From the IMG/VR virus record IMGVR_UViG_3300034954_001721: a stretch of 64,000 nt of DNA; one strand, given 5' to 3'. The notes under the pieces were generated by a model, which was not told the origin of the DNA, ran no database searches, and saw only the letters and a program-made list of their open reading frames with translations. A program made the position numbers and the translations under genes. The stretch is from a virus. This document shows positions 22,064-37,598 of this stretch, in pieces (within the stretch, counting starts at the first letter, position 1; each line of letters begins with the position of its first letter).

Positions 22064-25000
22064 ATGTCTAGATATATCTCAGGTCGCTATAAAAAAACTC
22101 CCCAATCGGGATTAACTACCGATAGATATAGATATTTGTCTCCAGGTGATTCTGAACCAAATTTAGGTAATCCTCCTCCTGGAGGTACTCCTAATATTCC
22201 TGCTGGAGAACAATATCAAATAATATCTATTATTGGTGATGATAATCAAATAAATCGATATTGGATTCCTGTTCAGGGAGGTATTATTCCTGGATCAATT
22301 AGTGTATTTGAAGAAAGTGAACTTGTTGGTACTGCTAGTAGTATTACACAACTTGATTTTATTGGTAATTCTATAACTGCTGTAGCAGATCCTTATATTG
22401 AAGGTGTTAGTGTAGGTACTCTTGCAACAATAACAGTTGCACCTCCTGGAAATAATAATTCAGTATTATTCAAAAGTAGTGATGATTTTGCCACAGATAC
22501 TAGATTTACTTTTAATGATGGATTATTTGCTGCTGGTGATAGAATAACTGTAGGAACGGGAGGAACATTTGTAACAACAGACTTAAACGGTTTTGTTGGT
22601 ATTTCAACTATAGATCCAACTCAGAGATTACATCTTGATGGAAATTTTAGAATCACAGGAACAATTTATGATTCTAATAATCAACCTGGTAGTACGGGAG
22701 ATTTAATAGTAAAAACTGCAACTGGTGGTCTTTTGTGGGTTACACCACAATCAGTAATTTCTGGTGCCGGTGGAACTATAGGTCAAATTCAGTTTCATAA
22801 TACTGCTGGTCTTGTAGACGGAGCAGAAAAGTTTTATTATGATTTTAATAATGATCGTGTTGGTATCGGAAGCACAATACCGACACAATTATTGGATGTT
22901 CTTGGAGTATCTACCTTTAGTGGTGGTGTCAATATTGATACTTTAACCGTAACCCAAAATTCAACATTTGAAAAGAATTTAGATGTTGATCAAAAATTAA
23001 CAGTAGATGGTTTAGCGGATTTAGATGAACTCAAAGTTACAGGAATTGCAACTTTTGATAATATAATTGAAGCTAAAAAAGATTTAGATGTAGATGGTCA
23101 TACGGAACTTGATAATTTAGGTGTATCTGGTATAGCAACTTTTAGTAGTGAATTACAAGTTGACGCTACAGGAAACTTAAATGTACTTGGACCCTCTGTT
23201 GGTGTTGCAGTAACACTTGCCGGTAATGCTGGTATCACAACAACTGGAGGAGACCTTTATGTTGGTGGTGATTTATACATCAAAGATGATTTAACCTTTG
23301 ATAATTTAACAGCAAACACTGGTACTTTTAATACCTCTTTAGATATTCAAGGAATTACAACAACTGATACGTTAAAAGTAGGGACAAATCCAACGGTCAG
23401 CATCACATCAATACTTGATGAAGATGACATGTCATCTGATAGTGCCACCGCACTTGCCACTCAGCAATCAATTAAGGCATATGTAGATAATCAAATTACC
23501 GCTCAAGATTTAGACTTTGCGGGAGATAGTGGAAATGGTTCCGTTGATCTTGATAGTGAGACGTTTAAAATTGAAGGAACCACAAATGAAATTGTAACTG
23601 TAGGTAATGGAACTACTTTAACAATTGGTTTACCTGATGATGTTACTGTTTCTGGAAATCTTACAGTAAATGGTAATACAACACTTGGTAATGATGTAAA
23701 TTCTGATACTGTATCTTTTGGTTCTCGTGTAATTAGTGATATTAATCCTAAAACTAATAATGGTGTGAATTTAGGATCTGCTAATCTAAGATGGAATAAT
23801 GTTTATGCAACTACGTTTAATGGTGCTTTCCAAGGAACTGCTGATATTGCTAAGAAGTTAGAAACTCCTAGAGAAATTTCTTTTGGAACTGATGTTGTTG
23901 CGGTAGGAAAAACTTTTGATGGAACTCAAAATGTAGGATTCGCACTTACATTAACAACTACTGGTGTCGAACAAGGAACTTATGGTTCTTCAACTCAAGT
24001 TGGTATTGTTACTGTTGACACTAAAGGTAGAATAACAGCAGCATCTAATGTTGATATTAACTTTGCTGATGCTAGTGTTGATATTGCTAACAAATTAAAA
24101 ACACCTAGAACATTTACTTTAGGTGAAGGTACCAATGATGATATTGTTGCAGTAGGAAAAACTTTTGATGGAACTGAAAATGTAGGATTTGCACTCACCC
24201 TAAAGGACGTTGGTCCTGGTGCAGGAGATTATGGTGGAGATAATAAATTAGTATCCTTAACATTAGATGATAAAGGTAGAGTTACTGGAGTTACAAGTAC
24301 TAATATTAATTTTGGCAATGCTAATGTTGCAACTGCCGATTCATTAACTAATTCTAGAAATATTGAGGCAACAGGTGATATTACATGGAATGTTGACTTC
24401 AAAGGTCATGAAGATGTAACTGCAGCAGCAACACTGGCAGATACTGCTGTATCAGCAGGTGATTATGGATCTGGAACTCAAGTTGGAACATTTTCTGTTG
24501 ACAGTAAAGGAAGATTAACAGCAGCATCTAATGTTGATATTAACTTTGCTGATGCTAGTGTCGGTTTTGCAACTATTGCTGGATACGCACATACTGCAGG
24601 TATAGCAACTATTGCTGGATACGCACATACTGCAGGTATAGCAACTGTTGCAGAATATGCAGATAATGCAGGTATAGCAACTAACTTAAAAGGTGGTGGT
24701 GCGTATCAAATTCCTTATCAAAGTGATGTTGATACAACACAATTTATTGCCAATGGAAGTGTAACTGGTCAATTACTTCAGTATAATCAAGGTTCAGCAC
24801 CATCTTGGGTGAGTGCAACGGACTTAACTGCAGGAGTAGCAAATAGTCTTTCAGGTGGTGCAGCAGGAAGCATACCATATCAAACTGGTCCAGGAGTAAC
24901 CACATTCCTTGGAGAACCTGATGCAGATAATAGGGTTCTCACTTACAACAATACTAGTGAAGCACCAGAATGGAAAGATATATCCACTTTTGCTGGGGTT

Positions 25001-28000
25001 GGATATACAATAGAAGCGGCAGATGATGGTGACAATGCTAAAATTGTGCTGACTGACGGTGGAACAGGAATTTCTTCCATCAAAGTTACTGCTGGTTCTA
25101 ATATTACTATTGACCCTGCAGATTCGACTGGATTTACTATTTCTGCTGTTAATGGTGCTGGAGTTGGTATTGCTGCTAGTGCTAGTGATATATTAAATGC
25201 AGTTGATGGTAATATTGGTGGTATTGATGCTGGTGCCGATAAGATTGTTTTCTATGATGATAGTGAAAACAAGTTAACTTACTTGACTGCAGGAAGTGGA
25301 TTAACGATAGATAATACTACTATTAGTGTAGATAGTGACGCAGGTAAAACTTACGATTTAACTGTTGAACAAACTGCTGGTAATAATGATGATCCTGCAA
25401 TTAGATTAAGTGATGGAACTACCAATGATGATATTACAATCACTGGTGGTTCTAATATTACAGTTACAAGAAACTCTGGTACACAACTTACCATTGATGC
25501 TGTTGCTGGTGCTGGAATTGGTATTGCCGTTAGTGCTAGTGATGTATTAAAAGTTGATACTGCTCAAATTGATGCTGTTGATGCTGGTGCCGATAAAATT
25601 GTTTTTTACGATGATAGTGAAGAGAAGTTAACTTACTTAACTTTAGGAAATGGATTAACGATTACCGATGATACATTAAATGCATCAAGTAATTCTCAAT
25701 ATGCTGAGGTTGCTGGATATGCACATACTGCAGGTATATCGACATACACATCAGAATGGATATTAGGTGCTAATGGAATTAATCATTATACATTCACTGG
25801 TCCAGGTTTAATTGGTGCAGAGAATGATCCAAAAATCTATCTGGTTAGAGGTCAGCAGTACAAGTTTACCAATAATATGAATGCTCATCCTTTTAGGATT
25901 CAGAGCACTGCAAATGGATCTGCTGGAACACAATATAATGATGGAATTGTTAATAATGATATACAGAATGGTACTTTAACTTGGAATGTTCAGTTTGATG
26001 CTCCTCCTACATTATATTATCAGTGTACTTCTCATCCAAATATGGGTGGTGAAATTGTTATTTTAGAATCTGGTAGTGGAGATACAAACACAACGTATGA
26101 TTTAGAAACGGAAGCAGACGGTACTGATATAAAAATAAAACTGGTAGGTAGTGATAATAATACTGGTATTGTTACTATTACTGCAGGAAATAATATTACT
26201 CTTACCGACAACGGTGATAGTTTTACCATTGATGCTGCAAATAGTGGATCGGGTACATTAACAGATATTGATGTAAAACTATATTCGGATAATAATACGC
26301 CAAGAACAGAGTATGGATGCAGTAATCCAATTGATGTAACAATTACTGCTGGAATTGCAACGATTGGAATTGGAACTACAAGTAATGCATACGGAAAGCG
26401 TTATGTAGGAACCACAGAACCAACTGTAGATGTTTGTGATGGTGATATTTGGTATGATACTAGTGCTGGTAGTGGATCTAATTTTAGTTCAGATCCTGTA
26501 GGAACTATTGTTGCTTGGGCTGGTTCAGTTGCAAGTATTCCTAATGGATATCAACTTTGTGATGGTACTTCAGTACAATCATTAGCACTTCAAGATATTG
26601 TAGGACCTAATGTTCCTGACTTAAGAGATAGATTTATTATTGGTGCTACTGATGGAGGTGATAATACATATCCTGGTATTGGTATTGGTTCTACTGGTGG
26701 TGCTGCTACTCATACATTAACAGTTGATGAGATGCCATCTCATAATCATCCATTTAGTAATGGTGATTATTATTGGATAGGAGATAGCAGTGCAAGTCCA
26801 GATTTTAGTTGGAATACTGGTTCAGTTTACGAGGTATCAACTTCTTCTTCAATATCATCTCAAGGTGGTGGACAAGCACATAATAACCTCCCACCATATT
26901 ATGCTCTCTGCTATATTATCAAGCATAGTGCAACTGATAGTGGCAATGTCGGCATTAGTAGCGATAAAATTACAGAAGGAAACACAGAAGCAGAAGTCGT
27001 TGATACTGGAACTGATGGGCACTTTAAGGTTACAACTGAGGGTACAGAAAGATTCCGTATTGGATCTAATGGACAAATTGGTCTTGGTGGTGCTAACTAT
27101 GGAACTCCTGGTCAGGTATTAACTTCTGGTGGTGCTGGTGCAGGTGTTACTTGGGCAGACCAAACTAGTGGTGCTAGTGGTAGTGGAACTTTAACAGATA
27201 TTGATGTAAAACAATATGCGGATAATAATACGCCAAGAACAGAATATGGGTGTAGTAATCCGATTGAAGTGACAATTTCTGCCGGAATTGCTACAATAGG
27301 AATTGGGTCTACGAGTAATGCATTTGGAAAACGTTATATAGGATCCACAGAACCAACAGTAGATGTTTGTGATGGTGATATTTGGTATGATACTAATACT
27401 ACTGGTGGTGCTGGTTCTAGTAGTTCTGGTGGTGGTTCTTTAGTAAAACATGGAACAGTAACAATCGATACACCATCTTCAATAACGGAAGCAGCATTTA
27501 CTAATATTCCATCTACTGCCAAGAAAATCACCGTATCTCTGTATAGGTTTGGTTACAATACTCTAGATGGTACTAGTGATGATATTATTATGGAGGTTGG
27601 TGATAGTAGTGGATATGCTAACAGTGGATATCAATCAGCTTTTGATAGTGTAGATGTTGCTGGTAATCTAGGTGGAAATCAACTAACTACTGCTTATGGA
27701 CTTGCTGATGATACAAGTATTTCTTATGACTATAACATTACTATAGAATTAGTAAATGTAACTGGAAACAGTTGGACTATTTCACATCAAGGTGGAGATA
27801 GTACTGATAAATCAATCCATGGTGGTGGTAGTATAACACTATCAAACGCACTTGATAAACTAAGAATAAAAACTCAAAATGGTCGATATCTTTCCCCCGG
27901 TGGACCCCAGGGGAACCAGAATGGATATGTAACTGTTCATTATGAGACCGAAGGTAGTGGTGGTGGTTCTAGTAGTTCTGGTGGTAGTTCTTTAGTAAAA

Positions 28001-28681
28001 CTTGGAACAGTAGATGCCACTTCTAGTACTGCAGCAGCATTTACCAATATTCCGTCTACTGCCAAGAAAATCACAGTATCTATACATAGAGCCAATTTTA
28101 ATGGAACTAGTAATATTGGCTTCCTTAATATGGAAGTTGGTGATAGTAGTGGATATATTCAGTCTGGATATGAATCAAGTTATGAACTTCGAGACCAGAC
28201 ATCAGATGCATCAAGAACTACTTATTTTTATGGTTTGGGTTCTCATATTAATGATACCGATGATTACTCTTACAATATAGAATTAGTAAATATAACTGGA
28301 AATAAGTGGACTATTTCTCATGTAGGTCATAGCAACCAATCAACTGGGCAAATTTCTCATGGTGCTGGTAGTATACAATTAACGAATGCTCTTGATAAAC
28401 TTAGAATACAAACTTATACACCTGGTGGTTCGGGATACACAGCACAAACTTTTGATTCTGGAGAGGTAACCGTTTATTATGAGACCGAAGGTGGTGGTAG
28501 TAGTTCTAGTGGTGGTTCTGAGGGTACTGATGCTGGTCAAGGATTCTTCGAAAATGATACCACCTTAAATAGTTCCAAGACATTACCTGCAAACAAAAAC
28601 GTTGGTATATTTGGTCCATACACCATTGGAAATAATGTTACTTTGACTGTCCCAACAGGAACAACATTCACTGTCGTATAA
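22064..28681 (+). CDS. Giant modular tail fibre (2205 aa) with tail-collar domain
   Basis: VDSKGRITAAS repeats, plastocyanin-like YYQCTSHPNMGG module, collar PVGTIVAWAG...LCDG...PDLRDRFIIGA...NLPPYYALCYIIK, duplicated modules. Confidence 0.85.
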   Translation: MSRYISGRYKKTPQSGLTTDRYRYLSPGDSEPNLGNPPPGGTPNIPAGEQYQIISIIGDDNQINRYWIPVQGGIIPGSISVFEESELVGTASSITQLDFIGNSITAVADPYIEGVSVGTLATITVAPPGNNNSVLFKSSDDFATDTRFTFNDGLFAAGDRITVGTGGTFVTTDLNGFVGISTIDPTQRLHLDGNFRITGTIYDSNNQPGSTGDLIVKTATGGLLWVTPQSVISGAGGTIGQIQFHNTAGLVDGAEKFYYDFNNDRVGIGSTIPTQLLDVLGVSTFSGGVNIDTLTVTQNSTFEKNLDVDQKLTVDGLADLDELKVTGIATFDNIIEAKKDLDVDGHTELDNLGVSGIATFSSELQVDATGNLNVLGPSVGVAVTLAGNAGITTTGGDLYVGGDLYIKDDLTFDNLTANTGTFNTSLDIQGITTTDTLKVGTNPTVSITSILDEDDMSSDSATALATQQSIKAYVDNQITAQDLDFAGDSGNGSVDLDSETFKIEGTTNEIVTVGNGTTLTIGLPDDVTVSGNLTVNGNTTLGNDVNSDTVSFGSRVISDINPKTNNGVNLGSANLRWNNVYATTFNGAFQGTADIAKKLETPREISFGTDVVAVGKTFDGTQNVGFALTLTTTGVEQGTYGSSTQVGIVTVDTKGRITAASNVDINFADASVDIANKLKTPRTFTLGEGTNDDIVAVGKTFDGTENVGFALTLKDVGPGAGDYGGDNKLVSLTLDDKGRVTGVTSTNINFGNANVATADSLTNSRNIEATGDITWNVDFKGHEDVTAAATLADTAVSAGDYGSGTQVGTFSVDSKGRLTAASNVDINFADASVGFATIAGYAHTAGIATIAGYAHTAGIATVAEYADNAGIATNLKGGGAYQIPYQSDVDTTQFIANGSVTGQLLQYNQGSAPSWVSATDLTAGVANSLSGGAAGSIPYQTGPGVTTFLGEPDADNRVLTYNNTSEAPEWKDISTFAGVGYTIEAADDGDNAKIVLTDGGTGISSIKVTAGSNITIDPADSTGFTISAVNGAGVGIAASASDILNAVDGNIGGIDAGADKIVFYDDSENKLTYLTAGSGLTIDNTTISVDSDAGKTYDLTVEQTAGNNDDPAIRLSDGTTNDDITITGGSNITVTRNSGTQLTIDAVAGAGIGIAVSASDVLKVDTAQIDAVDAGADKIVFYDDSEEKLTYLTLGNGLTITDDTLNASSNSQYAEVAGYAHTAGISTYTSEWILGANGINHYTFTGPGLIGAENDPKIYLVRGQQYKFTNNMNAHPFRIQSTANGSAGTQYNDGIVNNDIQNGTLTWNVQFDAPPTLYYQCTSHPNMGGEIVILESGSGDTNTTYDLETEADGTDIKIKLVGSDNNTGIVTITAGNNITLTDNGDSFTIDAANSGSGTLTDIDVKLYSDNNTPRTEYGCSNPIDVTITAGIATIGIGTTSNAYGKRYVGTTEPTVDVCDGDIWYDTSAGSGSNFSSDPVGTIVAWAGSVASIPNGYQLCDGTSVQSLALQDIVGPNVPDLRDRFIIGATDGGDNTYPGIGIGSTGGAATHTLTVDEMPSHNHPFSNGDYYWIGDSSASPDFSWNTGSVYEVSTSSSISSQGGGQAHNNLPPYYALCYIIKHSATDSGNVGISSDKITEGNTEAEVVDTGTDGHFKVTTEGTERFRIGSNGQIGLGGANYGTPGQVLTSGGAGAGVTWADQTSGASGSGTLTDIDVKQYADNNTPRTEYGCSNPIEVTISAGIATIGIGSTSNAFGKRYIGSTEPTVDVCDGDIWYDTNTTGGAGSSSSGGGSLVKHGTVTIDTPSSITEAAFTNIPSTAKKITVSLYRFGYNTLDGTSDDIIMEVGDSSGYANSGYQSAFDSVDVAGNLGGNQLTTAYGLADDTSISYDYNITIELVNVTGNSWTISHQGGDSTDKSIHGGGSITLSNALDKLRIKTQNGRYLSPGGPQGNQNGYVTVHYETEGSGGGSSSSGGSSLVKLGTVDATSSTAAAFTNIPSTAKKITVSIHRANFNGTSNIGFLNMEVGDSSGYIQSGYESSYELRDQTSDASRTTYFYGLGSHINDTDDYSYNIELVNITGNKWTISHVGHSNQSTGQISHGAGSIQLTNALDKLRIQTYTPGGSGYTAQTFDSGEVTVYYETEGGGSSSSGGSEGTDAGQGFFENDTTLNSSKTLPANKNVGIFGPYTIGNNVTLTVPTGTTFTVV
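24569..24682 (+). repeat. Coding tandem repeat, 36-bp unit (ATIAGYAHTAGI), about 3 copies
   Basis: GCAACTATTGCTGGATACGCACATACTGCAGGTATA twice exactly, third copy diverged. Confidence 0.9.
26243..27394 (+). repeat. Internal duplication of a 73-aa module (26243-26461 and 27176-27394)
   Basis: SGSGTLTDIDVK.Y.DNNTPRTEYGCSNPI...DVCDGDIWYDT occurs twice, 933 nt apart. Confidence 0.9.
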
Positions 28682-28690
28682 GGAGGTAAT

Positions 28691-29200
28691 ATGGGAACTC
28701 TTAATGTATCAAACATAAACGCTACAGGAAATCTCAATCTTGGTGGTTCTTGGACTGATGCTCCTCCCGGAACTATTATTAAGGTTAGTTATGGTGAAGG
28801 TACAACACAAATGGCAACTACAGCAGCACAAACTTACTATACTATTCATAGTGTAAATCACACTGCTCTTGCTACAAATAGTAAATATTTTTTAACAGCA
28901 TATTGTCATGCTTGGGATGCAAGTGATAGCAGTCGCGCTAATCTTGGATTTTCTGTAACAATTGGGGGAGTTGAAACACGTATTCAAGGTGTTGATGGTG
29001 GTAGTGGTGATTCTTGGGGAACTAATGCTTATCCAGGTGCTAATCTTAATAGGTCTACTGTATATACATCAACTGCTGCTGCTGGAACTGTATTGACGTT
29101 TAATCTCATGGGTGCTGGTTGGGATACTAATGATACAAGATTCAATTATACTGGATATGGTCATATATCAACTCTGACCATAATGGAAATTGAAACATAA
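28691..29200 (+). CDS. Tail fibre tip / receptor-binding protein 1
   Basis: MGTLNVSNI N-terminus, GTIIKV, C-terminal STLTIMEI; paralog of 29592 and 30434. Confidence 0.65.
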   Translation: MGTLNVSNINATGNLNLGGSWTDAPPGTIIKVSYGEGTTQMATTAAQTYYTIHSVNHTALATNSKYFLTAYCHAWDASDSSRANLGFSVTIGGVETRIQGVDGGSGDSWGTNAYPGANLNRSTVYTSTAAAGTVLTFNLMGAGWDTNDTRFNYTGYGHISTLTIMEIET

Positions 29201-29224
29201 ATAAAAATAAAAATAAAAATCATT

Positions 29225-29590
29225 ATGAAGTACGATATTCCATCAGCATTACAAGTACTTACACCAGGAGCAGAATGGGTGCTTCGTGGTGATTCGTATT
29301 CTGGTTTGGAGTGGATTGATGGTCACGGACAAGATAAACCAACTCAAGCAGCAATTACTGCTAAAATCACAGAATTAGATAATGCAGAAGCAATGAAACT
29401 TCTGCGAGAAGAGAGAGATAGAAGAATTGCAAAGACTGATTGGAGAGCATCATCAGACCTTACACTTTCTTCAGAGTGGTCTACTTATAGGCAAGCACTT
29501 CGTGACCTTCCTTCTACAGCAACTCCAACCTTAGATGCTAGTTATAACTTAGATCTTACTTCTGTTACTTGGCCTACTGAACCTTCTTGA
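29225..29590 (+). CDS. Tail fibre assembly chaperone
   Basis: LREERDRRIAKTDW...W.TYRQALRDLP...WPTEP. Confidence 0.85.
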   Translation: MKYDIPSALQVLTPGAEWVLRGDSYSGLEWIDGHGQDKPTQAAITAKITELDNAEAMKLLREERDRRIAKTDWRASSDLTLSSEWSTYRQALRDLPSTATPTLDASYNLDLTSVTWPTEPS

Positions 29591-29591
29591 T

Positions 29592-30122
29592 ATGACTTCG
29601 CAAATTAGAGTAGATAGTATTGTACCAACAACTGGTGTACCTACTGGTGGTGGAGGAGGTATTGTTCAAGTAGTATCAAATACAAAGACTGATACTGCAA
29701 GTGTTAGTGGACTTACTTTTGGAGATGTGGGATTATCAGCAACCATTACCCCTAAATCCTCTAGTAATAAAATTTTAATATTAGTACAAGCAAATATTGG
29801 TTCTAGTGTTGGATATAGTATGAAGGCCAGATTGATGAGAGATAGTACTGCTATCCATATTGGTGATGCTGATGGTAACCGACCACGAGCAACTACAGAA
29901 GTCAGTCAAACTTATGGGAACACAATCACCTACAATGCCGACCAGGCAAATATGATATTCTTGGATTCTCCGGCAACCACATCACAAGTTACATATAAAA
30001 TACAAATGGCATCATATAGTAGTTATATAGTTTATATAAATCGAAATGGTGCCGACTTGGATACATCAAGTTATGATGCTAGCACAGCTTCTTCAATAAC
30101 ATTAATGGAGGTATCGGCATGA
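29592..30122 (+). CDS. Tail fibre tip / receptor-binding protein 2
   Basis: MTSQIRVDSI, GIVQVV, SATITPKSSSNKILI, LDSPATTSQVTYKIQ, SSITLMEV. Confidence 0.7.
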   Translation: MTSQIRVDSIVPTTGVPTGGGGGIVQVVSNTKTDTASVSGLTFGDVGLSATITPKSSSNKILILVQANIGSSVGYSMKARLMRDSTAIHIGDADGNRPRATTEVSQTYGNTITYNADQANMIFLDSPATTSQVTYKIQMASYSSYIVYINRNGADLDTSSYDASTASSITLMEVSA

Positions 30123-30412
30123 GTTATAATCACGAAGCAATATATCAAGTTCATACAAATGCCGTCAGGATTGATGATAGTCTTGGTGCATTTGATGCTG
30201 AGGGAAATAAAATATCTATAGATATTGATGCAGTTAATGCAGCTGCTGCAGAGATAGATGCTGCAAGAATTGTTGCTTATAAAAAAATGAGAAGGCATCA
30301 AGATTATATAAATGAATCAGATCCTCTATTCTTTAAGTATCAAAGAGGTGAAATTGAGAAATCTGTGTGGGAAGCAAAGGTAGCAGAAATAAAAAGTAGA
30401 ACTTATTCATAA
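30119..30412 (+). CDS. Putative fibre assembly chaperone
   Basis: RHQDYINESDPLFFKYQRGE....W...VAEIK.R motif; follows a tip gene. Confidence 0.65.
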   Translation: MSYNHEAIYQVHTNAVRIDDSLGAFDAEGNKISIDIDAVNAAAAEIDAARIVAYKKMRRHQDYINESDPLFFKYQRGEIEKSVWEAKVAEIKSRTYS

Positions 30413-30433
30413 GGTAAAGGAGCATTCGGCATA

Positions 30434-30988
30434 ATGAGTACAATCAAGGTAGATAGAATAGAACCACAAGATGGTTTACAGAGCAATGCTATGGGAGGTA
30501 TTGTTCAGGTTGTGCGTGCTGTTCATACCGGAACAGTAAGCGCAAGCACATCAACTTATGTAAGCACTGGTCTACAGGCATCCATCACACCTAGATCAGC
30601 ATCCAATAAAATTATGGTTTCATTTGAACATTCAATATATCATACCACTCAAAATGCTGATGTATATACACTTCATGGTATAAGAATAAAAAGAGGTACT
30701 CAAGTAATTTACACACCAGTAACTTCTAATAGTGGTAATAGTACTAGTTCTGGTCCATATGATTTTGGTCTTTATCATTCACATACTACTGTTTCCGACA
30801 ATTATTATCATAGATCTAGGGTAGAATATTTGGATAGTCCAGGTACAACTGGTACTTTAACATATTCAACAGAACTCTCTTGTTTTGGTGGTCAAGGTGT
30901 TGTATATTCAAATTATGTTGATCCAACCCCTGGTGTTACAGCATCGGCACCACAATCTTGGATGACTCTTGTTGAAATTACAGCATAA
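30434..30988 (+). CDS. Tail fibre tip / receptor-binding protein 3
   Basis: MSTIKVDRI, GIVQVV, ASITPRSASNKIMV, LDSPGTTGTLTY, SWMTLVEI. Confidence 0.7.
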   Translation: MSTIKVDRIEPQDGLQSNAMGGIVQVVRAVHTGTVSASTSTYVSTGLQASITPRSASNKIMVSFEHSIYHTTQNADVYTLHGIRIKRGTQVIYTPVTSNSGNSTSSGPYDFGLYHSHTTVSDNYYHRSRVEYLDSPGTTGTLTYSTELSCFGGQGVVYSNYVDPTPGVTASAPQSWMTLVEITA

Positions 30989-31016
30989 CAATAAATACAG
31001 GAAAGAATAATATAAG

Positions 31017-34000
31017 ATGGGCATAAAAGTACGGCATAATGGACAATGGGTAGAATTCACACCTCCTAGTAGTGGTGGTGTTGGTGTTGGTACTACAGAT
31101 AGGATTTCTGAAGGAAATTCAAAAGCAGAAATAATTGATACTGCAACTGAATCTAAATTCACTGTAGAAATTGATGCTGCGGAAAAATTTTCTGTTGATA
31201 TTGGTGGTCCAAAAATACATAGACAAGATAATTCTATTGAAGGTGGGTCTATAGTATTCAATAGAGCAGCAGATGATGTTGCTGCTTTTGAACTTGATGT
31301 TTATGGATCATCAAGTTCTGATTCGGGTAGATTTAGAATTGTAGATTCTACTGGTGGTGTAGAAAGATTTGCGATCGGACCTTCTGGACAAATTGGTCTT
31401 AGTGGTGCTAACTATGGAACCTCTGGTCAAGTATTAACTTCTAATGGTTCATCTAGTGCTCCTACATGGCAGACTGTTTCTGGTGGTTCTGGTGGTGGAG
31501 GAGAACCTGTAGGTACTATTATTGCTTGGTCTGGAACAGTAGCAACTATTCCAACTGGATATCAACTCTGCGATGGTTCTGCAGCATCAACATCAGAACT
31601 TCAAGCAATCACTGGTCCTAATGTACCTGATTTAACAAACAGATTCATTATTGGTGCCGATGCTGATGCTACAATTAATAGTGTCGTACTCCCAACAACA
31701 TCAATAACTGGTTCTGCAACAACAACTGGTGGAAGTAAGGATGCTGTTGTTGTTTCACACACTCATTCATATAATGATAGGTCAAATTCACAAGGAAATC
31801 CCAATAGTGTAACCGGAGGTCCTAGTGCGATTAATGACGGAGTGTTACCATCTACAACAGGAAATGCATCGGGAGGAGTAGTTGGAACCAATAAAAACCT
31901 TCCACCATATTATGCTCTCTGCTATATCATCAAGCACAGTGCAACAAGTGGTTCTGGTTCTAGTGGTGGTGGAATTGAATTATTATCACCAAAAACGGCA
32001 ACTGGAACATCAGTAGAATTTACTGATATTCCTGCAGGTGCAAAAGAAATTACATTAATGCTCAGTGAGGTTGGAATCTCAGATGATACTAATCATCTGT
32101 TAGTACAATTGGGAACAAGTTCTGGTTGGATTAACACTGGATATTATGCTTCTTCTGAAGCGGAAAATGGGACTACTGATGTTTCTGCTAGTGATGGATT
32201 CCCAATTCATAATGTCAATGATACAGATTCTGCCGGTAACCGTTTTACTGGTTCCATGATTATCAATCTGTTTAAAACAAGTCCATCTAAGACTTATACT
32301 CAGATTGGACAATTTAAAAGATACAATAATTCTAACGATTGCGAAGATTGTAGTAGTGCATGTCAAACTTATGGTAATTTAGATTCAATCAGTAATAATG
32401 CTGAAATAACCAGAATAAGAGTGCTTGCTAACCATACTGGTAGTGGTCAAAGCTTTACAAATGGTGAAATTAATATTTCATATAAGACTAGTGGTGTTGG
32501 TTCCACTAATAAAATAACTCAAGGAAATACATCAGCAGAAGTTGTAGACACAGGTTCTGATGGTCACTTTAAAGTTACAACAGAGGGTACAGAAAGACTC
32601 CGTATAAAGTCTGACGGTTTTGTTAGTGTTAAAGATAGTAGTGTAAACGACTTTCTTGTAATTCAACCCACACAAGTATTTGAATGGTATACACCTAGTG
32701 GTTACACCAGACAATTGAGTTCTCAGATTGGGACTCAAATTACCAGCGGCATTGTACCCAATAATGCAACAAGAAATACAGATGCTTTAGTTTATGATTA
32801 TTGTTGGGATAATTATGATATTTTTGATTTAGATGGTGATGGTATAGTTTCATATACAGACGCATTATTATTCTTTAGATATTACGCTAATACTGCTGAT
32901 TCTTCACTAATTGGCACTCAAACGAATGTATGGTCATCAAGAGCAACTAGAAATGACCATACATCAATTAGACAGTTTATGTCGAAATATGATAGTATAG
33001 AAAATACTAATACATCTTATAGTGCAGCATCAAAAAGTATATCAGGAGTTACTACTTCTACATCCACTAAGGTATTAGGTATTGGTGCTTCTGTTAGTGG
33101 AACGGATATTCCTGCAGGATCATTTATTGAATCTATTCAAGTTGGTGCAATAACAATAAATCAAAATCCAACAGGCACTCAAACAAATGCAACAATCACT
33201 ATTGGAAATGGTGCCCATGATATTGATGGAGATGGTACGTTCAATCAGTTTAGTGATGGACTTATTCTCCTGAGAATTTTTTCTGGATCATCATCACCAT
33301 CAGCTGATACACCTGAAGATTATGAATCATATGATTTCAATAATGATTCATTTTTAAATCCTGATGATGGTGGTGTAGCACAGTTTAGAATTTTAAGACA
33401 AGGCGTTGGTATTGGAACAACACAACCTGATAATAGGTTGCAAGTAGGTACAGGTAATAGTTCTTTTAATGTTACTGATTTAGGTTTGGTTGGTATTGGA
33501 ACTGATAACCCAATATATAAATTGGACGTTCTTGGGACTAACGTACTTGCAAATATAAAAAGTACAAATAATAACTACGTCCTTCAATTTGCTGGAAATA
33601 ACTGTCCATATGATGTATATGTAGGAACAGATAATGCAAATAATTTCCTTTTTGCTAATGAAAATAATGATGGAACATTTTCAGAAAGACTTCGTATTGG
33701 ATCTGCTGGACAAATTGGTCTTAGTGGAGCAAATTATGGAACGCCAGGTCAAGTATTAACTTCTGGTGGTTCTAGCGCAAATGTTACTTGGACTACTCCT
33801 TCCTCTGGTGGACTGTCACAATTAAAGGTCAGACAATTTACTAGTAACACTACATATACTCCAACTAGTGGTGCTACACATTTTATTGTTTATGCAACTG
33901 GAGGTGGTGGAGGTTCTGGTGGTGGTACACCTACTGGTGGTGCAGGTGGTGGGGGCACTGCTATCCGTGCATATAATTCTACACAAATGGGCAGCAGTGC

Positions 34001-34412
34001 CTCTATAACGATAGGTGGTGGAGGTTCTGGTGGTAGTGCTAGTAGTAGTGATTGGAATCTCAATAATGGTAGTCATGGTGGAGATACCACATTCAATCCT
34101 GGTGGCACTGGTACTACAATAACAGGTGGTGGTGGAAGAAGATCAACTGCTACTGGTGGTGGTGCAGGAGGAACTGCAACAAATGGACAGTCCAATTTGA
34201 CTGGAATGAGTGGAGCTAGTACACGAGTTATTGGTGGGTTGAATAGCGAATCTACTCCTGCTGCTGGAGGATCATCACACTTTCAACATAGAGGTCATGG
34301 GGGTGATGGTGCATATGGATATTCGGCTGATAATCAAGATGATGTTTCGTATTCTGCAGGTTCTGGAAATTCTGGAACTGCCGGTATAGTTATTGTTTAT
34401 GAATATGGTTAA
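31017..34412 (+). CDS. Modular tail fibre with collar domain, dockerin/EF-hand-like motifs and Gly-rich tip
   Basis: Collar motifs shared with 22064; DLDGDG and DIDGDG motifs; GGGGSGG...GIVIVYEY C-terminus; late promoter ATAAATA at 30991. Confidence 0.8.
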   Translation: MGIKVRHNGQWVEFTPPSSGGVGVGTTDRISEGNSKAEIIDTATESKFTVEIDAAEKFSVDIGGPKIHRQDNSIEGGSIVFNRAADDVAAFELDVYGSSSSDSGRFRIVDSTGGVERFAIGPSGQIGLSGANYGTSGQVLTSNGSSSAPTWQTVSGGSGGGGEPVGTIIAWSGTVATIPTGYQLCDGSAASTSELQAITGPNVPDLTNRFIIGADADATINSVVLPTTSITGSATTTGGSKDAVVVSHTHSYNDRSNSQGNPNSVTGGPSAINDGVLPSTTGNASGGVVGTNKNLPPYYALCYIIKHSATSGSGSSGGGIELLSPKTATGTSVEFTDIPAGAKEITLMLSEVGISDDTNHLLVQLGTSSGWINTGYYASSEAENGTTDVSASDGFPIHNVNDTDSAGNRFTGSMIINLFKTSPSKTYTQIGQFKRYNNSNDCEDCSSACQTYGNLDSISNNAEITRIRVLANHTGSGQSFTNGEINISYKTSGVGSTNKITQGNTSAEVVDTGSDGHFKVTTEGTERLRIKSDGFVSVKDSSVNDFLVIQPTQVFEWYTPSGYTRQLSSQIGTQITSGIVPNNATRNTDALVYDYCWDNYDIFDLDGDGIVSYTDALLFFRYYANTADSSLIGTQTNVWSSRATRNDHTSIRQFMSKYDSIENTNTSYSAASKSISGVTTSTSTKVLGIGASVSGTDIPAGSFIESIQVGAITINQNPTGTQTNATITIGNGAHDIDGDGTFNQFSDGLILLRIFSGSSSPSADTPEDYESYDFNNDSFLNPDDGGVAQFRILRQGVGIGTTQPDNRLQVGTGNSSFNVTDLGLVGIGTDNPIYKLDVLGTNVLANIKSTNNNYVLQFAGNNCPYDVYVGTDNANNFLFANENNDGTFSERLRIGSAGQIGLSGANYGTPGQVLTSGGSSANVTWTTPSSGGLSQLKVRQFTSNTTYTPTSGATHFIVYATGGGGGSGGGTPTGGAGGGGTAIRAYNSTQMGSSASITIGGGGSGGSASSSDWNLNNGSHGGDTTFNPGGTGTTITGGGGRRSTATGGGAGGTATNGQSNLTGMSGASTRVIGGLNSESTPAAGGSSHFQHRGHGGDGAYGYSADNQDDVSYSAGSGNSGTAGIVIVYEYG

Positions 34413-34426
34413 AGGAGGTAATTAAA

Positions 34427-34792
34427 ATGGCAAATTATGCAATTATAGAAAATCAAACAATTACTAATGTAGTAGAATGGGATGGAGATACTAACAACTG
34501 GTCTCCTCCAGATGGTTCTATCGCAATTCTTTTAGATACTACTAACATAGGAATAGGAGATAGTTATGTCGGAGGAAATTTTGTAAAGACAGATATTTAC
34601 ACAACTGCTGAACGTTGGCAGGGTCTAAGAAATATGAGAAATGGGCTTTTAGCAGAAACTGATTGGTCACAATTAGGAGACATTCCTGTAGGAATTAAGA
34701 GTTCATATCAAAAATATAGACAAGAACTACGCGATTTACCTGCAAATATATCAGAACCTCGTAATGTCACATGGCCAGAGCATCCAGAATAA
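34427..34792 (+). CDS. Tail fibre assembly chaperone
   Basis: MANYAIIEN..., LRNMRNGLLAETDW...YRQELRDLP...WPEHP. Confidence 0.85.
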   Translation: MANYAIIENQTITNVVEWDGDTNNWSPPDGSIAILLDTTNIGIGDSYVGGNFVKTDIYTTAERWQGLRNMRNGLLAETDWSQLGDIPVGIKSSYQKYRQELRDLPANISEPRNVTWPEHPE

Positions 34793-35358
34793 AAGTAACA
34801 GCATCTCTGCAAAAACAATTAGAAGATAATATAAACTTTGATGAAATAAATTATTTTGTTAGAAGAGATGGAGAAGGTGAATCTAAATTTTTTCCTGAAT
34901 GGGAGAATGAAATTTCCGAAGAAAAATTAATTTCGATTAAATCAAAGAATCTTATTCTTGACACTTCAGGTAATAAAAATTTAGTCCATTTTCCAAGAAA
35001 ACATGCTATTAGAATAAAACCGATAATAAAATCATTGTTTCCAAATAGGAAGATAAGAACAAGTGGATTTTTTTATTATCCTAAGACTGGATATATGGGA
35101 TGGCATACAAATTGTAGTACACCATCTGATACACTTTATGTTACATATTCAACAGGTGTTTCATTTTTTAGATATTATGATGGGGAGAAAGTTGTAACAG
35201 ATTATGATGATTGTGGATTTACTATTAGAAAGTTTAAAAATAGAGCACAAAAACCATATTTCTGGCACTGTGTAGGAAGTGATTGTGATAGATTTAGTTT
35301 TGGTTTTCGATTATTCGGTGGTTGTGAAGAAGGGAGTCTAGAAACTCCTCCCTCTTAA
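34771..35358 (+). CDS. Putative 2OG-Fe(II)/cupin-fold oxygenase
   Basis: GYMGWHTN...FWHCVGS..DRFSFGF; start uncertain. Confidence 0.55.
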   Translation: MARASRIKVTASLQKQLEDNINFDEINYFVRRDGEGESKFFPEWENEISEEKLISIKSKNLILDTSGNKNLVHFPRKHAIRIKPIIKSLFPNRKIRTSGFFYYPKTGYMGWHTNCSTPSDTLYVTYSTGVSFFRYYDGEKVVTDYDDCGFTIRKFKNRAQKPYFWHCVGSDCDRFSFGFRLFGGCEEGSLETPPS

Positions 35359-35674
35359 TTACGTAAAATAAACTTTCATATATGTTATTATTTTTCATTT
35401 TTACTATTCTGTGATTTCCATCTATCAATCTATATTTTAAATTGAGTGGATTTTCACATTCACAAACTATTCCTGGAAATGATGTATCACATTTTTCATA
35501 TCTTTTTTGATTGGAAATTCCTTTATATGCAATTTCTGAGTGCTTTATTGTTGTCAAACGTTCATCAAAGAGAAAAGGTTTCAAATAAAATAAATCAATT
35601 ACACAATTATTACCATTGATACTCCAATCTCCACAAAATTTGCTATTTGTACAAACATGAAATCCTTTTAACAT
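35294..35674 (-). CDS. ParB/Srx-like domain protein
   Basis: DTSFPGIV...YRLIDGNHRIVK motif. Confidence 0.6.
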   Translation of the reverse strand: MLKGFHVCTNSKFCGDWSINGNNCVIDLFYLKPFLFDERLTTIKHSEIAYKGISNQKRYEKCDTSFPGIVCECENPLNLKYRLIDGNHRIVKMKNNNIYESLFYVIKREEFLDSLLHNHRIIENQN

Positions 35675-35721
35675 TACACTTTCGCTTGTATACTTAAATA
35701 AATATAAGAAAAAAAATTATA

Positions 35722-36633
35722 ATGGGAACTAAAATTAGAGTTGATGGTGAATGGGTTGATTTAGAAATTAACAGCACAGTTTCTCCTGATGGTCTTGATG
35801 GATCTTGGACAACTACCAGTAAACAGCATGATACGTATTATACTAATGGAGCATCATTAATCTATGTAAGTGCAATTTTTAGGGTTAAGACAATTGGTAA
35901 TGATAGTAATGGCGTAACAGCAGGTAGTAGTGCTTGGGTATATGTATCTGACCCAGGTGAAACTGGAACAAATCTTTCAAACTATACTAATATATCTAGA
36001 GTGAGAGATAATGGAACAGCAGATGCAGAAAATCTTTATCTAAATGTAAGATTTTTTGTTCCACCATCATGTAAGTATATTGTAAAACTGTATAATAGCA
36101 GTTTATCTGATTGGGGTAATAATAGTAGAATTTCCACACTTTCTTGGAATGAATTTGGTATTAATTTGAAAACTCCAGATCATAATTTTACTTCATTAGA
36201 TTCTAATAGTAATAATTTTCAGCGTTGTGGTAAAGCACCCTCAACAGCTATAATCAATGCTTCCAATTCTGTGACGAATGGATGGTCAGATTTTATGGAG
36301 GAGTTTGCAGTATGGCATGAACCTGGAAATGTTGGAACACTTAGTCAAGCATATTCAACAACATATACAATAAATATCACAAAAGCAGGTGATTATACAT
36401 TAGAATATGGTATAGATGATTTTGGAAGCATAACTTTTGATGGAACACAAGTTGCATCAGCTGTTGAAGCTGATGCAACATGGACAAATGATCCACCTAG
36501 CTCTGTTACATTATCAAATGTAAGTATTGGGTCGCATACATTAGTTGTAACCGTAACTAATAGTCCAAATTCAAATGCTTGGGATACCAATCCTGCAGGC
36601 ATTGCATGGAGACTTAAACCTTTTGGAACCTAA
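35722..36633 (+). CDS. Putative accessory receptor-binding protein (RDNG-family domain plus PA14-like beta-sandwich)
   Basis: Paralog of the next two ORFs; C-terminal YTLEYGIDDFGSITFDG...NPAGIAW; late promoter ATAAATA at 35698. Confidence 0.6.
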   Translation: MGTKIRVDGEWVDLEINSTVSPDGLDGSWTTTSKQHDTYYTNGASLIYVSAIFRVKTIGNDSNGVTAGSSAWVYVSDPGETGTNLSNYTNISRVRDNGTADAENLYLNVRFFVPPSCKYIVKLYNSSLSDWGNNSRISTLSWNEFGINLKTPDHNFTSLDSNSNNFQRCGKAPSTAIINASNSVTNGWSDFMEEFAVWHEPGNVGTLSQAYSTTYTINITKAGDYTLEYGIDDFGSITFDGTQVASAVEADATWTNDPPSSVTLSNVSIGSHTLVVTVTNSPNSNAWDTNPAGIAWRLKPFGT

Positions 36634-36642
36634 AGAAATAAA

Positions 36643-37122
36643 ATGCCAATAAGAGTTAGAGAAGGAAACACTTGGAAATTAGTTGCAAATCCTACAGGAA
36701 TTTCTGATACTGTAACGGGTAGTTATGAGTATTATGGACCTGGTGAAACGACCGAAAAAGTTGCTAATACATCATATACAAATAATACAACCAAACTTAT
36801 TCATGTTAGTGCCACAATAGGTATAGATAGAAATGCATCAATTGGTAGTGGCAATAATGCAAAGGAACTTATTGCAGGAAGTTACATTCTTGCATCAATA
36901 ACTTCTCCACAAAATGTAACTACTGAAGTTGCTAACATTAGAGATAACGGTAGTATAAACACACAATATTTGTTTTTAAATCCACAATTTTTTGTACCTG
37001 TTGGATATAGTTACATAATTAAATTGTATGATTCTGATGATAATCATTGGTCAGATAATACAACTTATCCAAACGCTGTAGAAACATTTGCTTGGTCAGA
37101 ATTTAAATTTCAATTACAATAA
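36643..37122 (+). CDS. Putative accessory receptor-binding protein (RDNG-family paralog)
   Basis: YTNNT.KLI.VSA...RDNG...FFVP....YII...W.EF shared with neighbours. Confidence 0.6.
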   Translation: MPIRVREGNTWKLVANPTGISDTVTGSYEYYGPGETTEKVANTSYTNNTTKLIHVSATIGIDRNASIGSGNNAKELIAGSYILASITSPQNVTTEVANIRDNGSINTQYLFLNPQFFVPVGYSYIIKLYDSDDNHWSDNTTYPNAVETFAWSEFKFQLQ

Positions 37123-37598
37123 TGGCAGTACATCTTAGAAAAAATGGAGTCTGGACTAATATCACTTTTGATATTACACCATTTGCTGTTGGCGGAACCT
37201 GGAGTGATGAAACAAGTAATAGACTTTATAGAGATACTAGTGATACTGACATAGAACAGGCAAAAAGAATATACACAAATAATACAGGTAAATTAATTCT
37301 TGTTCGTGCCGTACCGGGGATAGACAGAGTTGCTAGAGGTTTGTCTACTAATGATATTTCTGGATCTTATGCGATTGCATATGTAGATGACGTGGAAGTT
37401 GCTAGATTTAGAGATAATGGAACAAATTCAGCAGATAAACTTAGAATTGAACTTCAGTTCTTTGTTCCAAATTATAGTGAATATTATATAAAAGTTTTTA
37501 AGAAAAATCATAACCAGAGTCAGACTTGGCAGGGTGATGACTCCAATGGTAACACGTATGTTGAAACAATTGAGTGGTTTGAATTTACATTTCAGTAA
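37122..37598 (+). CDS. Putative accessory receptor-binding protein (RDNG-family paralog)
   Basis: Same motif series: YTNNTGKLI, RDNGT, FFVP, W.EF. Confidence 0.6.
   Translation: MAVHLRKNGVWTNITFDITPFAVGGTWSDETSNRLYRDTSDTDIEQAKRIYTNNTGKLILVRAVPGIDRVARGLSTNDISGSYAIAYVDDVEVARFRDNGTNSADKLRIELQFFVPNYSEYYIKVFKKNHNQSQTWQGDDSNGNTYVETIEWFEFTFQ

What the first reader, a model, noticed from the sequence alone, without database searches (positions are those of the whole stretch)
26402..37165. Plug-and-socket branched fibre system: split GDIWYDT / K(V/I)R.(N/D)G.W domain
Seen: the 2205-aa fibre has two copies of Y(V/I)G(T/S)TEPTVDVCDGDIWYDT (26402-26461, 27335-27394), each followed directly by a Gly/Ser linker. 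Known: in phage fibres this motif usually continues into a K(V/I)Y.G..W beta-hairpin; a related intact version ends the 44514 protein (GATIYNTTTNKLQVYTGTAW). Seen: that missing half forms the extreme N-terminus of four separate downstream ORFs, MGIKVRHNGQWVE (31017), MGTKIRVDGEWVD (35722), MPIRVREGNTWKL (36643) and MAVHLRKNGVWTN (37122), although the body of 31017 is unrelated to the other three. Inference: these N-terminal hairpins dock into the half-domains by strand complementation, so the main fibre would be a scaffold with two sockets and four interchangeable branches, widening host range combinatorially without recombinases or a DGR.
Basis: partly seen in the sequence, partly recalled or inferred. 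Interest (0 to 1): 0.8.

Follow-up and report, generated by a model that had tools for sequence, protein, structure and literature searches.

The report
Split-domain plug-and-socket joints in cyanophage fibres
In this T4-like cyanophage and many marine relatives, a small four-stranded fibre domain is cut in two, with one half on a scaffold fibre and the other at the very start of the next fibre or receptor-binding proteins, so the parts most likely snap together by completing the fold; this is predicted from sequence, not shown by experiment.

Summary
The 2205-aa fibre (22064-28681) carries two 72-aa modules ending CDGDIWYDT plus a Gly/Ser linker. Four downstream ORFs begin with M-x-(I/V)-(K/R/H)-(V/I/L)-R-x-x-G/N-x-W.

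Comparative data support the docking idea:
- The module supplies strands 1-2 of a widespread four-stranded unit, and the N-terminal hairpin supplies strands 3-4.
- In relatives the fibre stops right after GDIWYDT and the next gene starts with the hairpin (8 distinct pairs).
- 4-5 protein clusters have both halves fused.
- 25 of 135 clusters carry a plug and a socket in one protein.
- 63-66 of 71 socket loci have a plug ORF downstream.
- A plug-only DNA pattern finds almost only socket contigs.
- Complete genomes (P-SSM2, one 210-kb IMG/VR genome) hold exactly one of each.
- AlphaFold2 folds a natural fused form as one four-stranded sheet (pLDDT 82-94).

Not shown: physical binding, oligomeric state, whether the two internal sockets really branch, how four plugs share two sockets, and any host-range effect.

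Beta-hairpin fold completion between phage adhesion proteins has a solved precedent (Tuc2009 BppU-BppA). This scan noted split-domain fibre joints with other folds on other genomes. This domain pair was noted only on this genome, and I found no paper describing it.

The parts
22064..28681 (+). Scaffold fibre, 2205 aa. It follows the baseplate genes and shares its N-terminus with P-SSM2 PSSM2_023 and the AG-345-L05 fibre.
   Evidence: PHROG 677 'baseplate wedge tail fiber protein connector', E 1e-26.
26246..26461 (+). Socket domain 1 (aa 1395-1466). Its last 22 aa (26396-26461) are strands 1-2 of the four-stranded unit and end CDGDIWYDT.
   Evidence: The free-unit HMM matches only positions 6-30 of 46.
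26462..26905 (+). Gly/Ser linker, then a collar-like / gp10_C-like domain linked in cis to socket 1.
   Evidence: Pfam Collar 22.4 bits (cut-off 24) and Gp10_C 23.2 bits (cut-off 27). PHROG 8469.
27179..27394 (+). Socket domain 2 (aa 1706-1777), 84% identical to socket 1.
27395..28453 (+). Gly/Ser linker, then two tandem head-like repeats of about 150 aa linked in cis to socket 2.
   Evidence: Read from the translation. The same head type follows sockets in other clusters. No Pfam family.
31017..31058 (+). Plug 1 (MGIKVRHNGQWVEF), the N-terminal hairpin of the 1131-aa fibre at 31017-34412.
   Evidence: Best completer of the unit among 91 window ORF N-termini (+6.8 bits).
31017..34412 (+). Plug-bearing fibre with collar-like, dockerin-like and glycine-rich domains. 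A fibre-assembly chaperone-like gene follows at 34427-34792.
35722..36633 (+). Plug 2 (MGTKIRVDGEWVDL, 35722-35763) on a 303-aa protein. Its first half is a paralogue of the two ORFs that follow.
   Evidence: Rank 2 of 91. Homologue with a plug in L006.
36643..37122 (+). Plug 3 (MPIRVREGNTWKLV, 36643-36684) on a 159-aa TNF/C1q-like jelly-roll head.
   Evidence: M1 and W11 invariant, R6 nearly so, in 29 homologues. AlphaFold2 pLDDT 86.5 with hairpin at residues 3-14. Foldseek hits CD40L, RANKL, TNF, C1q and lambda gpJ, E 2e-4, TM 0.40-0.46.
37122..37598 (+). Plug 4 (MAVHLRKNGVWTNI, 37122-37163) on a 158-aa paralogue. This is the most divergent plug.
46515..46586 (+). Uninterrupted version of the unit (both halves in one chain) at the C-terminus of the 691-aa tail protein at 44514-46589.

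Best explanation
**Proposed mechanism**
- The 72-aa 'socket' module ends with strands 1 and 2 ((K/R)(Y/F)(V/I)Q ... P ... CDGDIWYDT) of a small four-stranded beta unit. As an intact repeat, this unit is common in phage fibre-like proteins.
- Strands 3 and 4 are missing from the scaffold fibre. They form the first 14 residues (M-x-(I/V/L)-K-(V/I)-R-x-x-G-x-W-(V/I)-x-(V/I)) of the proteins encoded just downstream.
- These proteins attach to the scaffold by beta-hairpin fold completion. The joint replaces a peptide bond.

**Oligomeric state (inferred)**
- The same plug heads collagen triple helices, Collar-domain fibres and TNF/C1q-like heads.
- The partners are therefore probably trimers, and the joint is probably three such units around a threefold axis.

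**Reading for this phage**
- Both sockets are internal. Each continues through a Gly/Ser linker into its own cis domain.
- A docked plug protein would thus form a side branch.
- The 1131-aa fibre and the three TNF-like heads are the candidate branches.

**Shown versus inferred**
- Shown: the sequence complementarity, the fusions, the synteny and the genome counts.
- Inferred: binding itself, trimeric geometry, branching at internal sockets, and how four plugs share two sockets.
For: 1. **Terminal pairs.** In 8 distinct loci the fibre ORF stops 3-5 residues after GD(I/V)WY, and the next ORF, 4-65 nt away, begins with the plug.
2. **Natural fusions.** P0155/L032, P0119, P0085 and P0095 (and P0115) have the socket followed within 3-12 residues by (I/L)K(I/L)(R/Y)..G.W. 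The fused locus L032 has no plug ORF downstream.
3. **Structure model.** AlphaFold2 of fused P0119:81-187 gives strands 52-55, 69-72, 76-81 and 84-87, with pLDDT 82-94 over residues 50-90.
4. **HMM of the intact unit.** An HMM of 39 intact repeats matches the window sockets only over positions 6-30 of 46 (E about 1e-8). Appending the 31017 or 35722 N-terminus gives the two best scores among 91 window ORF N-termini.
5. **Synteny.** Of 71 evaluable socket loci, 63 have a plug ORF downstream by regex (66 with the variants read). In 42 it is the very next ORF.
6. **Reverse search.** A plug-only DNA pattern hits 18 IMG/VR contigs. Fourteen are socket contigs, one more has a terminal socket, and one is a short window-like contig.
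7. **Whole genomes.** P-SSM2 (252 kb) has one socket (PSSM2_024, internal) and one plug (PSSM2_027). The 210-kb genome G002 has one of each, 1.6 kb apart. S-SKS1 has one terminal socket with the plug-variant gene next to it.
8. **Plug and socket in one protein.** 25 of 135 cluster representatives begin with a plug and also carry a socket. P0119 has a plug, a socket and a cis hairpin.
9. **Same plug on unrelated bodies.** It precedes Collagen, Collar, TNF-like and unassigned bodies.
10. **Two matched classes.** WYDT sockets pair with K(V/I)R plugs, and WYQ(V/I) sockets pair with FIKKSDGN(F/Y)Y plugs.
11. **Solved precedent.** Hairpin fold completion between phage adhesion proteins is seen in Tuc2009 BppU-BppA (PMC4742702).
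Against: - No experiment or solved structure shows the contact.
- The two elements could co-occur because both belong to one inherited fibre module. Most counts are not corrected for relatedness.
- One complete genome (G003, 213 kb) has a socket but no plug by the pattern used, and no plug ORF in the 3.5 kb downstream.
- The window has four plugs for two sockets, so occupancy rules are unknown.
- The plugs of 36643 and 37122 deviate (R or H at position 4). They do not stand out in the chimera scoring: 36643 ranks about 11, and 37122 is outside the top 12.
- Position-wise covariation between socket and adjacent plug was not significant after dereplication (Fisher p = 0.10).
- The N-terminal 50 aa of the socket domain is modelled with only moderate confidence (pLDDT 52-73). 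No coordinates were available to inspect strand pairing directly.
Confidence: 0.65

Rival explanations
1. Only terminal sockets are true docking sites. The two internal sockets of this fibre would be relics of gene fusions, in which a Gly/Ser linker replaced the non-covalent joint. The four plug ORFs would attach elsewhere, or to sockets encoded outside the window.
For: - In terminal pairs the layout is socket-stop, then M-plug-linker-Collar. In this fibre it is socket-linker-Collar, as if the plug had been deleted on fusion.
- There are four plugs but only two sockets in the 64-kb window, and the rest of the genome is not held.
- G003 has an internal socket and no detected plug.
Against: - P-SSM2 and G002 each have only one socket genome-wide. 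It is internal, and each genome still has exactly one plug ORF.
- Most of the 63 loci with a plug ORF have internal sockets.
- GDIWYDT is as conserved in internal sockets as in terminal ones.
Confidence: 0.15
2. The N-terminal hairpin is a general anchor for another site, such as the baseplate or another fibre domain, and the socket module is a self-sufficient spacer. On this reading they co-occur only because both belong to the same inherited cyanophage fibre gene cluster.
For: - Synteny counts are not corrected for relatedness.
- No position-wise covariation was found.
- No structural match identifies the socket fold.
Against: - Fused forms place the hairpin directly after GDIWYDT, and AlphaFold2 folds them confidently as one sheet.
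- Sockets at the extreme C-terminus are followed within 4-65 nt by plug genes.
- The socket matches only the first half of the intact repeat.
- S-SKS1, a Synechococcus phage of another genus (Llyrvirus, outside Kyanoviridae), has the same arrangement with a matched variant pair.
Confidence: 0.12
3. Both elements are homotypic trimerisation nuclei. Three socket halves would pack with each other, and three plug hairpins with each other. Any joint between them would then be stacking rather than sheet completion.
For: - Plugs sit directly before collagen repeats, which need a trimerisation nucleus.
- The weak, non-significant structural neighbours include collagen XV/XVIII trimerisation domains.
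Against: - In fused forms and in the intact repeat family, the four strands form one unit within a single chain.
- This reading does not explain why plug genes track socket genes so closely.
Confidence: 0.05

Closest known systems
Lactococcus phage Tuc2009 BppU-BppA joint (crystal structure; PMC4742702)
   Same: A beta-hairpin from one baseplate or adhesion protein completes a beta-sheet of another, giving a composite domain that attaches an accessory receptor-binding module.
   Different: - In Tuc2009 the hairpin is a C-terminal extension of the hub protein, and the completed fold is an Ig/titin-like sandwich.
- Here the hairpin is the N-terminus of the distal protein, and the unit is a four-stranded GD.W.D repeat.
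- Here the pair recurs on many unrelated cargo proteins and as plug-plus-socket proteins.
- No sequence relationship was tested.
Donor-strand complementation/exchange in chaperone-usher pili (Fim, Pap, Caf1)
   Same: An N-terminal extension of the next subunit supplies the missing strand(s) of the previous subunit's incomplete fold, chaining subunits non-covalently.
   Different: - Pili use an Ig-like fold lacking one strand, a single donor strand, a periplasmic chaperone and an usher.
- Here two strands are donated to a four-stranded unit, in cytoplasmic phage assembly, with no chaperone-usher genes.
- The resemblance is in mechanism only, and rests on established knowledge rather than a test here.
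T4 gp10 and gp10-like adaptor domains of branched receptor-binding complexes (CBA120 tailspikes, G7C gp63.1/gp66)
   Same: A baseplate-proximal scaffold offers attachment sites for the N-termini of further fibres or spikes, giving branched adhesins. The scaffold here lies after the baseplate genes and has a weak Gp10_C match.
   Different: - gp10-like sites are whole folded domains that bind partner N-terminal domains, not halves of one split domain.
- The Gp10_C match is below Pfam's cut-off (23.2 against 27).
- The comparison with CBA120 and G7C rests on my own knowledge and was not checked in papers here.
Intact GD(L/I)W(F/Y)D...YRW.G..W four-stranded repeats of phage fibre-like proteins (no Pfam family found)
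   Same: The order and signature of strands 1-4 are the same. The window sockets align to the first half, and the plugs resemble the second half.
   Different: In those proteins the unit is continuous and often tandemly repeated. Here it is split between two polypeptides, and the plug's turn is one residue shorter.

Membership tests
Four-stranded GD.W.D repeat unit (unnamed; HMM built here from 39 intact copies) | Strand 1 (K/T)(Y/F).Q, Pro-containing loop, strand 2 GD(L/I)W(F/Y)D(T/S) | tested here: met
   Both window sockets match HMM positions 6-30, i-E 9e-9 and 5e-8.
Four-stranded GD.W.D repeat unit (unnamed; HMM built here from 39 intact copies) | Strands 3-4, (K).(Y)(R)(W/Y).G..W, in the same chain | tested here: not met
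   The match stops at HMM position 30 and a Gly/Ser linker follows. The missing half is found at four ORF N-termini.
Phage Tail Collar domain (PF07484) | Score at or above Pfam's gathering cut-off (24 bits) | tested here: inconclusive
   P0001 aa 1480-1525 scores 22.4 bits and P0002 aa 166-211 scores 22.5 bits, just below the cut-off. Plug ORFs of relatives score 73-113 bits.
T4 Gp10 C-terminal domain (PF21939) | Score at or above the gathering cut-off (27 bits) | tested here: not met
   23.2 bits over aa 1522-1614. It is a lead only.
TNF/C1q-like jelly-roll head (fold level) for the 36643 protein | Ten-strand jelly roll superposable on TNF-family or C1q heads | tested here: inconclusive
   Model pLDDT 86.5. 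Foldseek hits CD40L, RANKL, TNF and C1q at E 2e-4 to 3e-3 with probability 1.00, but TM is only 0.40-0.46. Trimer formation was not tested.
Chaperone-usher donor-strand complementation | Ig-like pilin fold lacking its last strand; single-strand N-terminal extension; chaperone and usher genes | tested here: not met
   The unit has four strands and the donor is a two-strand hairpin. The neighbouring genes are phage fibre and fibre-assembly genes. It works alike but is not a member.
Tuc2009-type hairpin completion joint | A hairpin of one protein hydrogen-bonded into a sheet of the partner in a solved or confidently modelled complex | not testable with these tools
   Only a natural single-chain fusion could be modelled confidently. 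No coordinates or complex model with support are available.

The most novel reading that the evidence does not exclude
Marine cyanophages would share a general assembly grammar for their adhesins. Short N-terminal plugs and half-domain sockets, in at least two matched classes (WYDT with K(V/I)R; WYQ(V/I) with FIKKSDGN(F/Y)Y), would let unrelated collagen stalks, Collar fibres and TNF-like heads be chained through plug-plus-socket adaptors and branched at internal sockets. A single scaffold fibre would then carry a tree of receptor-binding modules. When plugs outnumber sockets, as here (4 against 2), individual virions would differ in which branches they carry.
Probability: 0.3. Interest if true: 0.85.

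Novelty: new variant of a known kind. Interest (0 to 1): 0.7.

Why it matters
- The tail fibres of T4-like cyanophages are large, mosaic and almost wholly unannotated, although these phages infect Prochlorococcus and Synechococcus.
- A 14-residue tag and a 72-residue module would say which proteins hang on which. That gives a rule for reading these gene clusters and assigns about a dozen 'hypothetical' gene types to the adhesin.
- The rule would explain how receptor-binding modules are exchanged as whole genes.
- It is directly testable in cultured phages. P-SSM2 has one socket (PSSM2_024) and one plug (PSSM2_027). S-SKS1 has a terminal pair.
- It adds a natural, compact, non-covalent protein-joining pair to the known examples of fold completion.

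Tried and rejected
- **Complex prediction.** Complex prediction with the window socket (alignment A3) and plug (alignment A5), one chain each: best score 0.16 against a mark of 0.32. This is no verdict and counts neither for nor against binding. That row was left out.
- **Fold searches.** Foldseek and VIA-align of the fused-form model against the PDB gave nothing significant (best E 1.6; best Z 3.2), so the fold stays unassigned.
- **Sequence families.** Pfam and PDB sequence searches with the socket, the intact repeat and the P0006 C-terminus gave no family.
- **Named phages.** megablast of the region and tblastn of the 36643 protein against GenBank phages found nothing. tblastn of the socket found only S-SKS1 and AG-345-L05.
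- **Plug-based locus search.** The search for related loci with the full plug alignment failed for lack of a conserved stretch. A narrower alignment confirmed only 5 loci.
- **Own genome.** No whole genome is held for the window. The nearest record is a 28-kb fragment with neither element.
- **Covariation.** Socket strand-2 I/V against plug position-4 K/Y gave Fisher p = 0.10 after dereplication, so this is not evidence.
- **Virion proteomics.** The supplements of PMC3037559 could not be mapped to socket or plug proteins.
- **Chance.** A chance explanation is rejected. The motif is unique in the window, and the plug regex never matches minus-strand ORF starts.
Full report
**Setting**

The window is the structural module of a T4-like cyanomyovirus. 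Baseplate genes are followed by a run of plus-strand fibre genes. The nearest named relatives of the fibre N-terminus are Prochlorococcus phages P-SSM2 and P-SSM5 and the single-cell virus AG-345-L05, a member of Kyanoviridae. No whole genome is held for the window.

**Observation**

- The 2205-aa ORF at 22064-28681 contains the quoted motif at exactly the stated coordinates.
- The motif occurs nowhere else in six frames.
- The duplicated block is a 72-aa module (aa 1395-1466 and 1706-1777, 84% identical). It has two conserved Cys and a nearly invariant tail: SNA(Y/F)G.(R/K)(Y/F)(V/I)...P....CDGDIWYDT.
- Each copy is followed by a Gly/Ser linker and then a cis domain. The first is collar-like or gp10_C-like, just under Pfam cut-offs. 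The second is two tandem head-like repeats of about 150 aa.
- The four N-termini are as described.
- The 35722, 36643 and 37122 proteins are paralogues.
- The 44514 protein ends with an uninterrupted unit.

**What the two elements are**

- An intact repeat with the signature (K/T).(Y/F).Q...P......GD(L/I)W(F/Y)D(S/T)..(G/N).K.YR(W/Y).G..W is common in large fibre-like proteins, often in tandem.
- An HMM of 39 such units matches the window sockets over positions 6-30 of 46 and then stops. The socket therefore ends with the first two strands of this unit.
- I appended residues 2-17 of every window ORF to the socket half and rescored. The 31017 and 35722 N-termini ranked first and second of 91. 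The 36643 N-terminus ranked about eleventh, and 37122 lower.
- AlphaFold2 on a natural protein carrying both halves in one chain (P0119:81-187, 68-row alignment) gives four consecutive strands: KYVQ, DIWY, LKIRHG and VWVD. The pLDDT is 82-94 over residues 50-90. The N-terminal part of the module is less certain.
- No solved structure or Pfam family matches.

**Comparative evidence for docking in trans**

A socket profile finds 96 stretches in IMG/VR and 173 cluster representatives among 1.84 billion proteins. Three things can follow GD.WY.

- Most often there is a short Gly/Ser/Thr/Asp linker and another domain.
- In 8 distinct loci and 10 cluster representatives there is a stop codon after 2-5 residues. 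In those 8 loci the next ORF, 4-65 nt downstream, starts with the plug.
- In 4-5 clusters the hairpin follows in cis. The fused locus L032 has no plug gene in the 3.2 kb downstream.

Further counts:

- Of 71 loci with enough downstream sequence, 63 have a plug ORF by regex. Reading the rest adds variants (MGIKYR.., MKVRTSNSW.., MAIKVRVGSQW..). In 42 loci the plug ORF is the very next ORF.
- The reverse test is independent of the socket. A degenerate DNA pattern for the plug start hits only 18 contigs in IMG/VR. Fourteen are socket contigs, one more carries a terminal socket, and one is a short copy of this window's region.
- In complete genomes the counts are one to one. P-SSM2 has its socket in PSSM2_024 and its plug in PSSM2_027. 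A 210-kb IMG/VR genome has its one socket and one plug 1.6 kb apart. S-SKS1 has a terminal socket and a variant plug in the next gene.
- One complete genome has a socket and no detected plug.

**Modularity**

- The same 14 residues (M1 and W11 invariant, R6 and G9 nearly so) precede collagen triple-helix proteins, Collar-domain fibres, TNF/C1q-like heads and unassigned bodies.
- Twenty-five of 135 socket-bearing clusters also begin with a plug, including an 83-aa protein that is little more than plug plus socket. A plug close to its own socket might close it in cis.
- P0119 argues against cis closure as the general rule. It has an N-terminal plug, a socket and a cis hairpin, so its plug is free for another partner.
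- Two matched classes appear at terminal pairs: WYDT with K(V/I)R..G.W, and WYQ(V/I) with FIKKSDGN(F/Y)Y.
- A finer covariation test was not significant.

**Mechanism**

The best reading is fold completion. The distal protein's N-terminal hairpin adds strands 3-4 to the scaffold's strands 1-2.

Collagen and TNF-like cargo are trimeric by nature (established knowledge), and the plug lies 3-6 residues before the first collagen triplet. The joint is therefore probably threefold.

In terminal pairs this gives an end-to-end joint. In this phage, P-SSM2 and most loci, the socket continues in cis, so a docked partner would branch off. P-SSM2 and G002 each have only an internal socket yet still exactly one plug gene, which argues that internal sockets are used.

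Still open:

- How four plugs share two socket positions.
- Whether occupancy is alternative.
- Any effect on host range.

The 36643 model shows the N-terminal hairpin (residues 3-14, pLDDT 64-75) ahead of a confident jelly roll.

**Comparison with known systems**

- Hairpin completion between phage adhesion proteins is solved for Tuc2009 BppU-BppA (PMC4742702).
- Donor-strand complementation in pili, and gp10-like adaptors of branched tailspike complexes, work alike. These comparisons rest on my own knowledge.
- This system differs in fold, in polarity (the N-terminus of the distal protein is the donor), and in being a reusable tag-and-module pair across many cargo types.
- Full-text searches for the motifs, and for strand complementation in tail fibres, found no description.
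- Earlier notes of this scan describe split-domain fibre joints with FN3 and Calx-beta folds on other genomes. This domain pair was noted only on this genome.

**Verdict**

The docking interpretation is well supported by comparative genomics and one structure model, but not demonstrated. Branching and combinatorial use are plausible inferences. I class it as a new variant of a known kind, of clear interest to phage structural biology and cyanophage ecology.

Noticed in passing
window 28511-30988: The scaffold fibre ends with a conserved element of about 55 aa (F(F)(E/Q)N.T.L...PA..N.G.FGPYTI.N.VTLTVP). In relatives this element follows the socket directly. Three downstream ORFs (28691, 29592, 30434) share a different N-terminal tag (M(G/S)T(L/I).V..I), seen as MSTLKVNTIQ in other loci. 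They are interleaved with fibre-assembly chaperone-like ORFs: 29225 has PHROG 'tail fiber assembly' matches, and 30119 matches only PHROGs of unknown function. This may be a second attachment system on the same fibre.
   Followed up: partly
window 25811-26218 (aa 1250-1385 of the 2205-aa fibre): A segment has a His ... Cys-x2-His-x2-Met pattern (HPFRIQ ... YYQCTSHPNMGG), like a type-1 copper site. It gives a weak Pfam match to plastocyanin/azurin (PF00127, E 0.026, 15.4 bits, below the 21.2 cut-off). This may be a cupredoxin-like domain inside a tail fibre.
   Followed up: partly
window 32784-33326 (aa 590-770 of the 1131-aa fibre): Dockerin-type calcium-binding repeats (D.DGDG...L..R). Pfam Dockerin_1 scores 24.3 bits, above its 22.9 cut-off, E 3.5e-5.
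   Followed up: partly
L105 (P-SSM2) 8776, 10592, 13116; L038 5569, 6452: A third recurrent N-terminal tag in these fibre clusters is M..(N/D)FP(N/A)(N/S)P..(N/G)(D/Q).(H/Y)T..N(G)..W.W(D/N)G..W. It looks like a complete GD.W.D-type unit placed at the very N-terminus.
   Followed up: no
L032 596-4951: The relative with the cis-closed socket ends in an intramolecular-chaperone-like C-terminus (..YYSDERLKD..GVYY..). Its region between the fibre and the conserved MPLNKLENF gene lacks plug genes.
   Followed up: no
window 34427-34792: A tail-fibre assembly chaperone-like gene (PHROG 8716/4912, E 4e-17) lies directly after the 1131-aa plug-bearing fibre. This fits that protein being a folded receptor-binding fibre.
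   Followed up: partly
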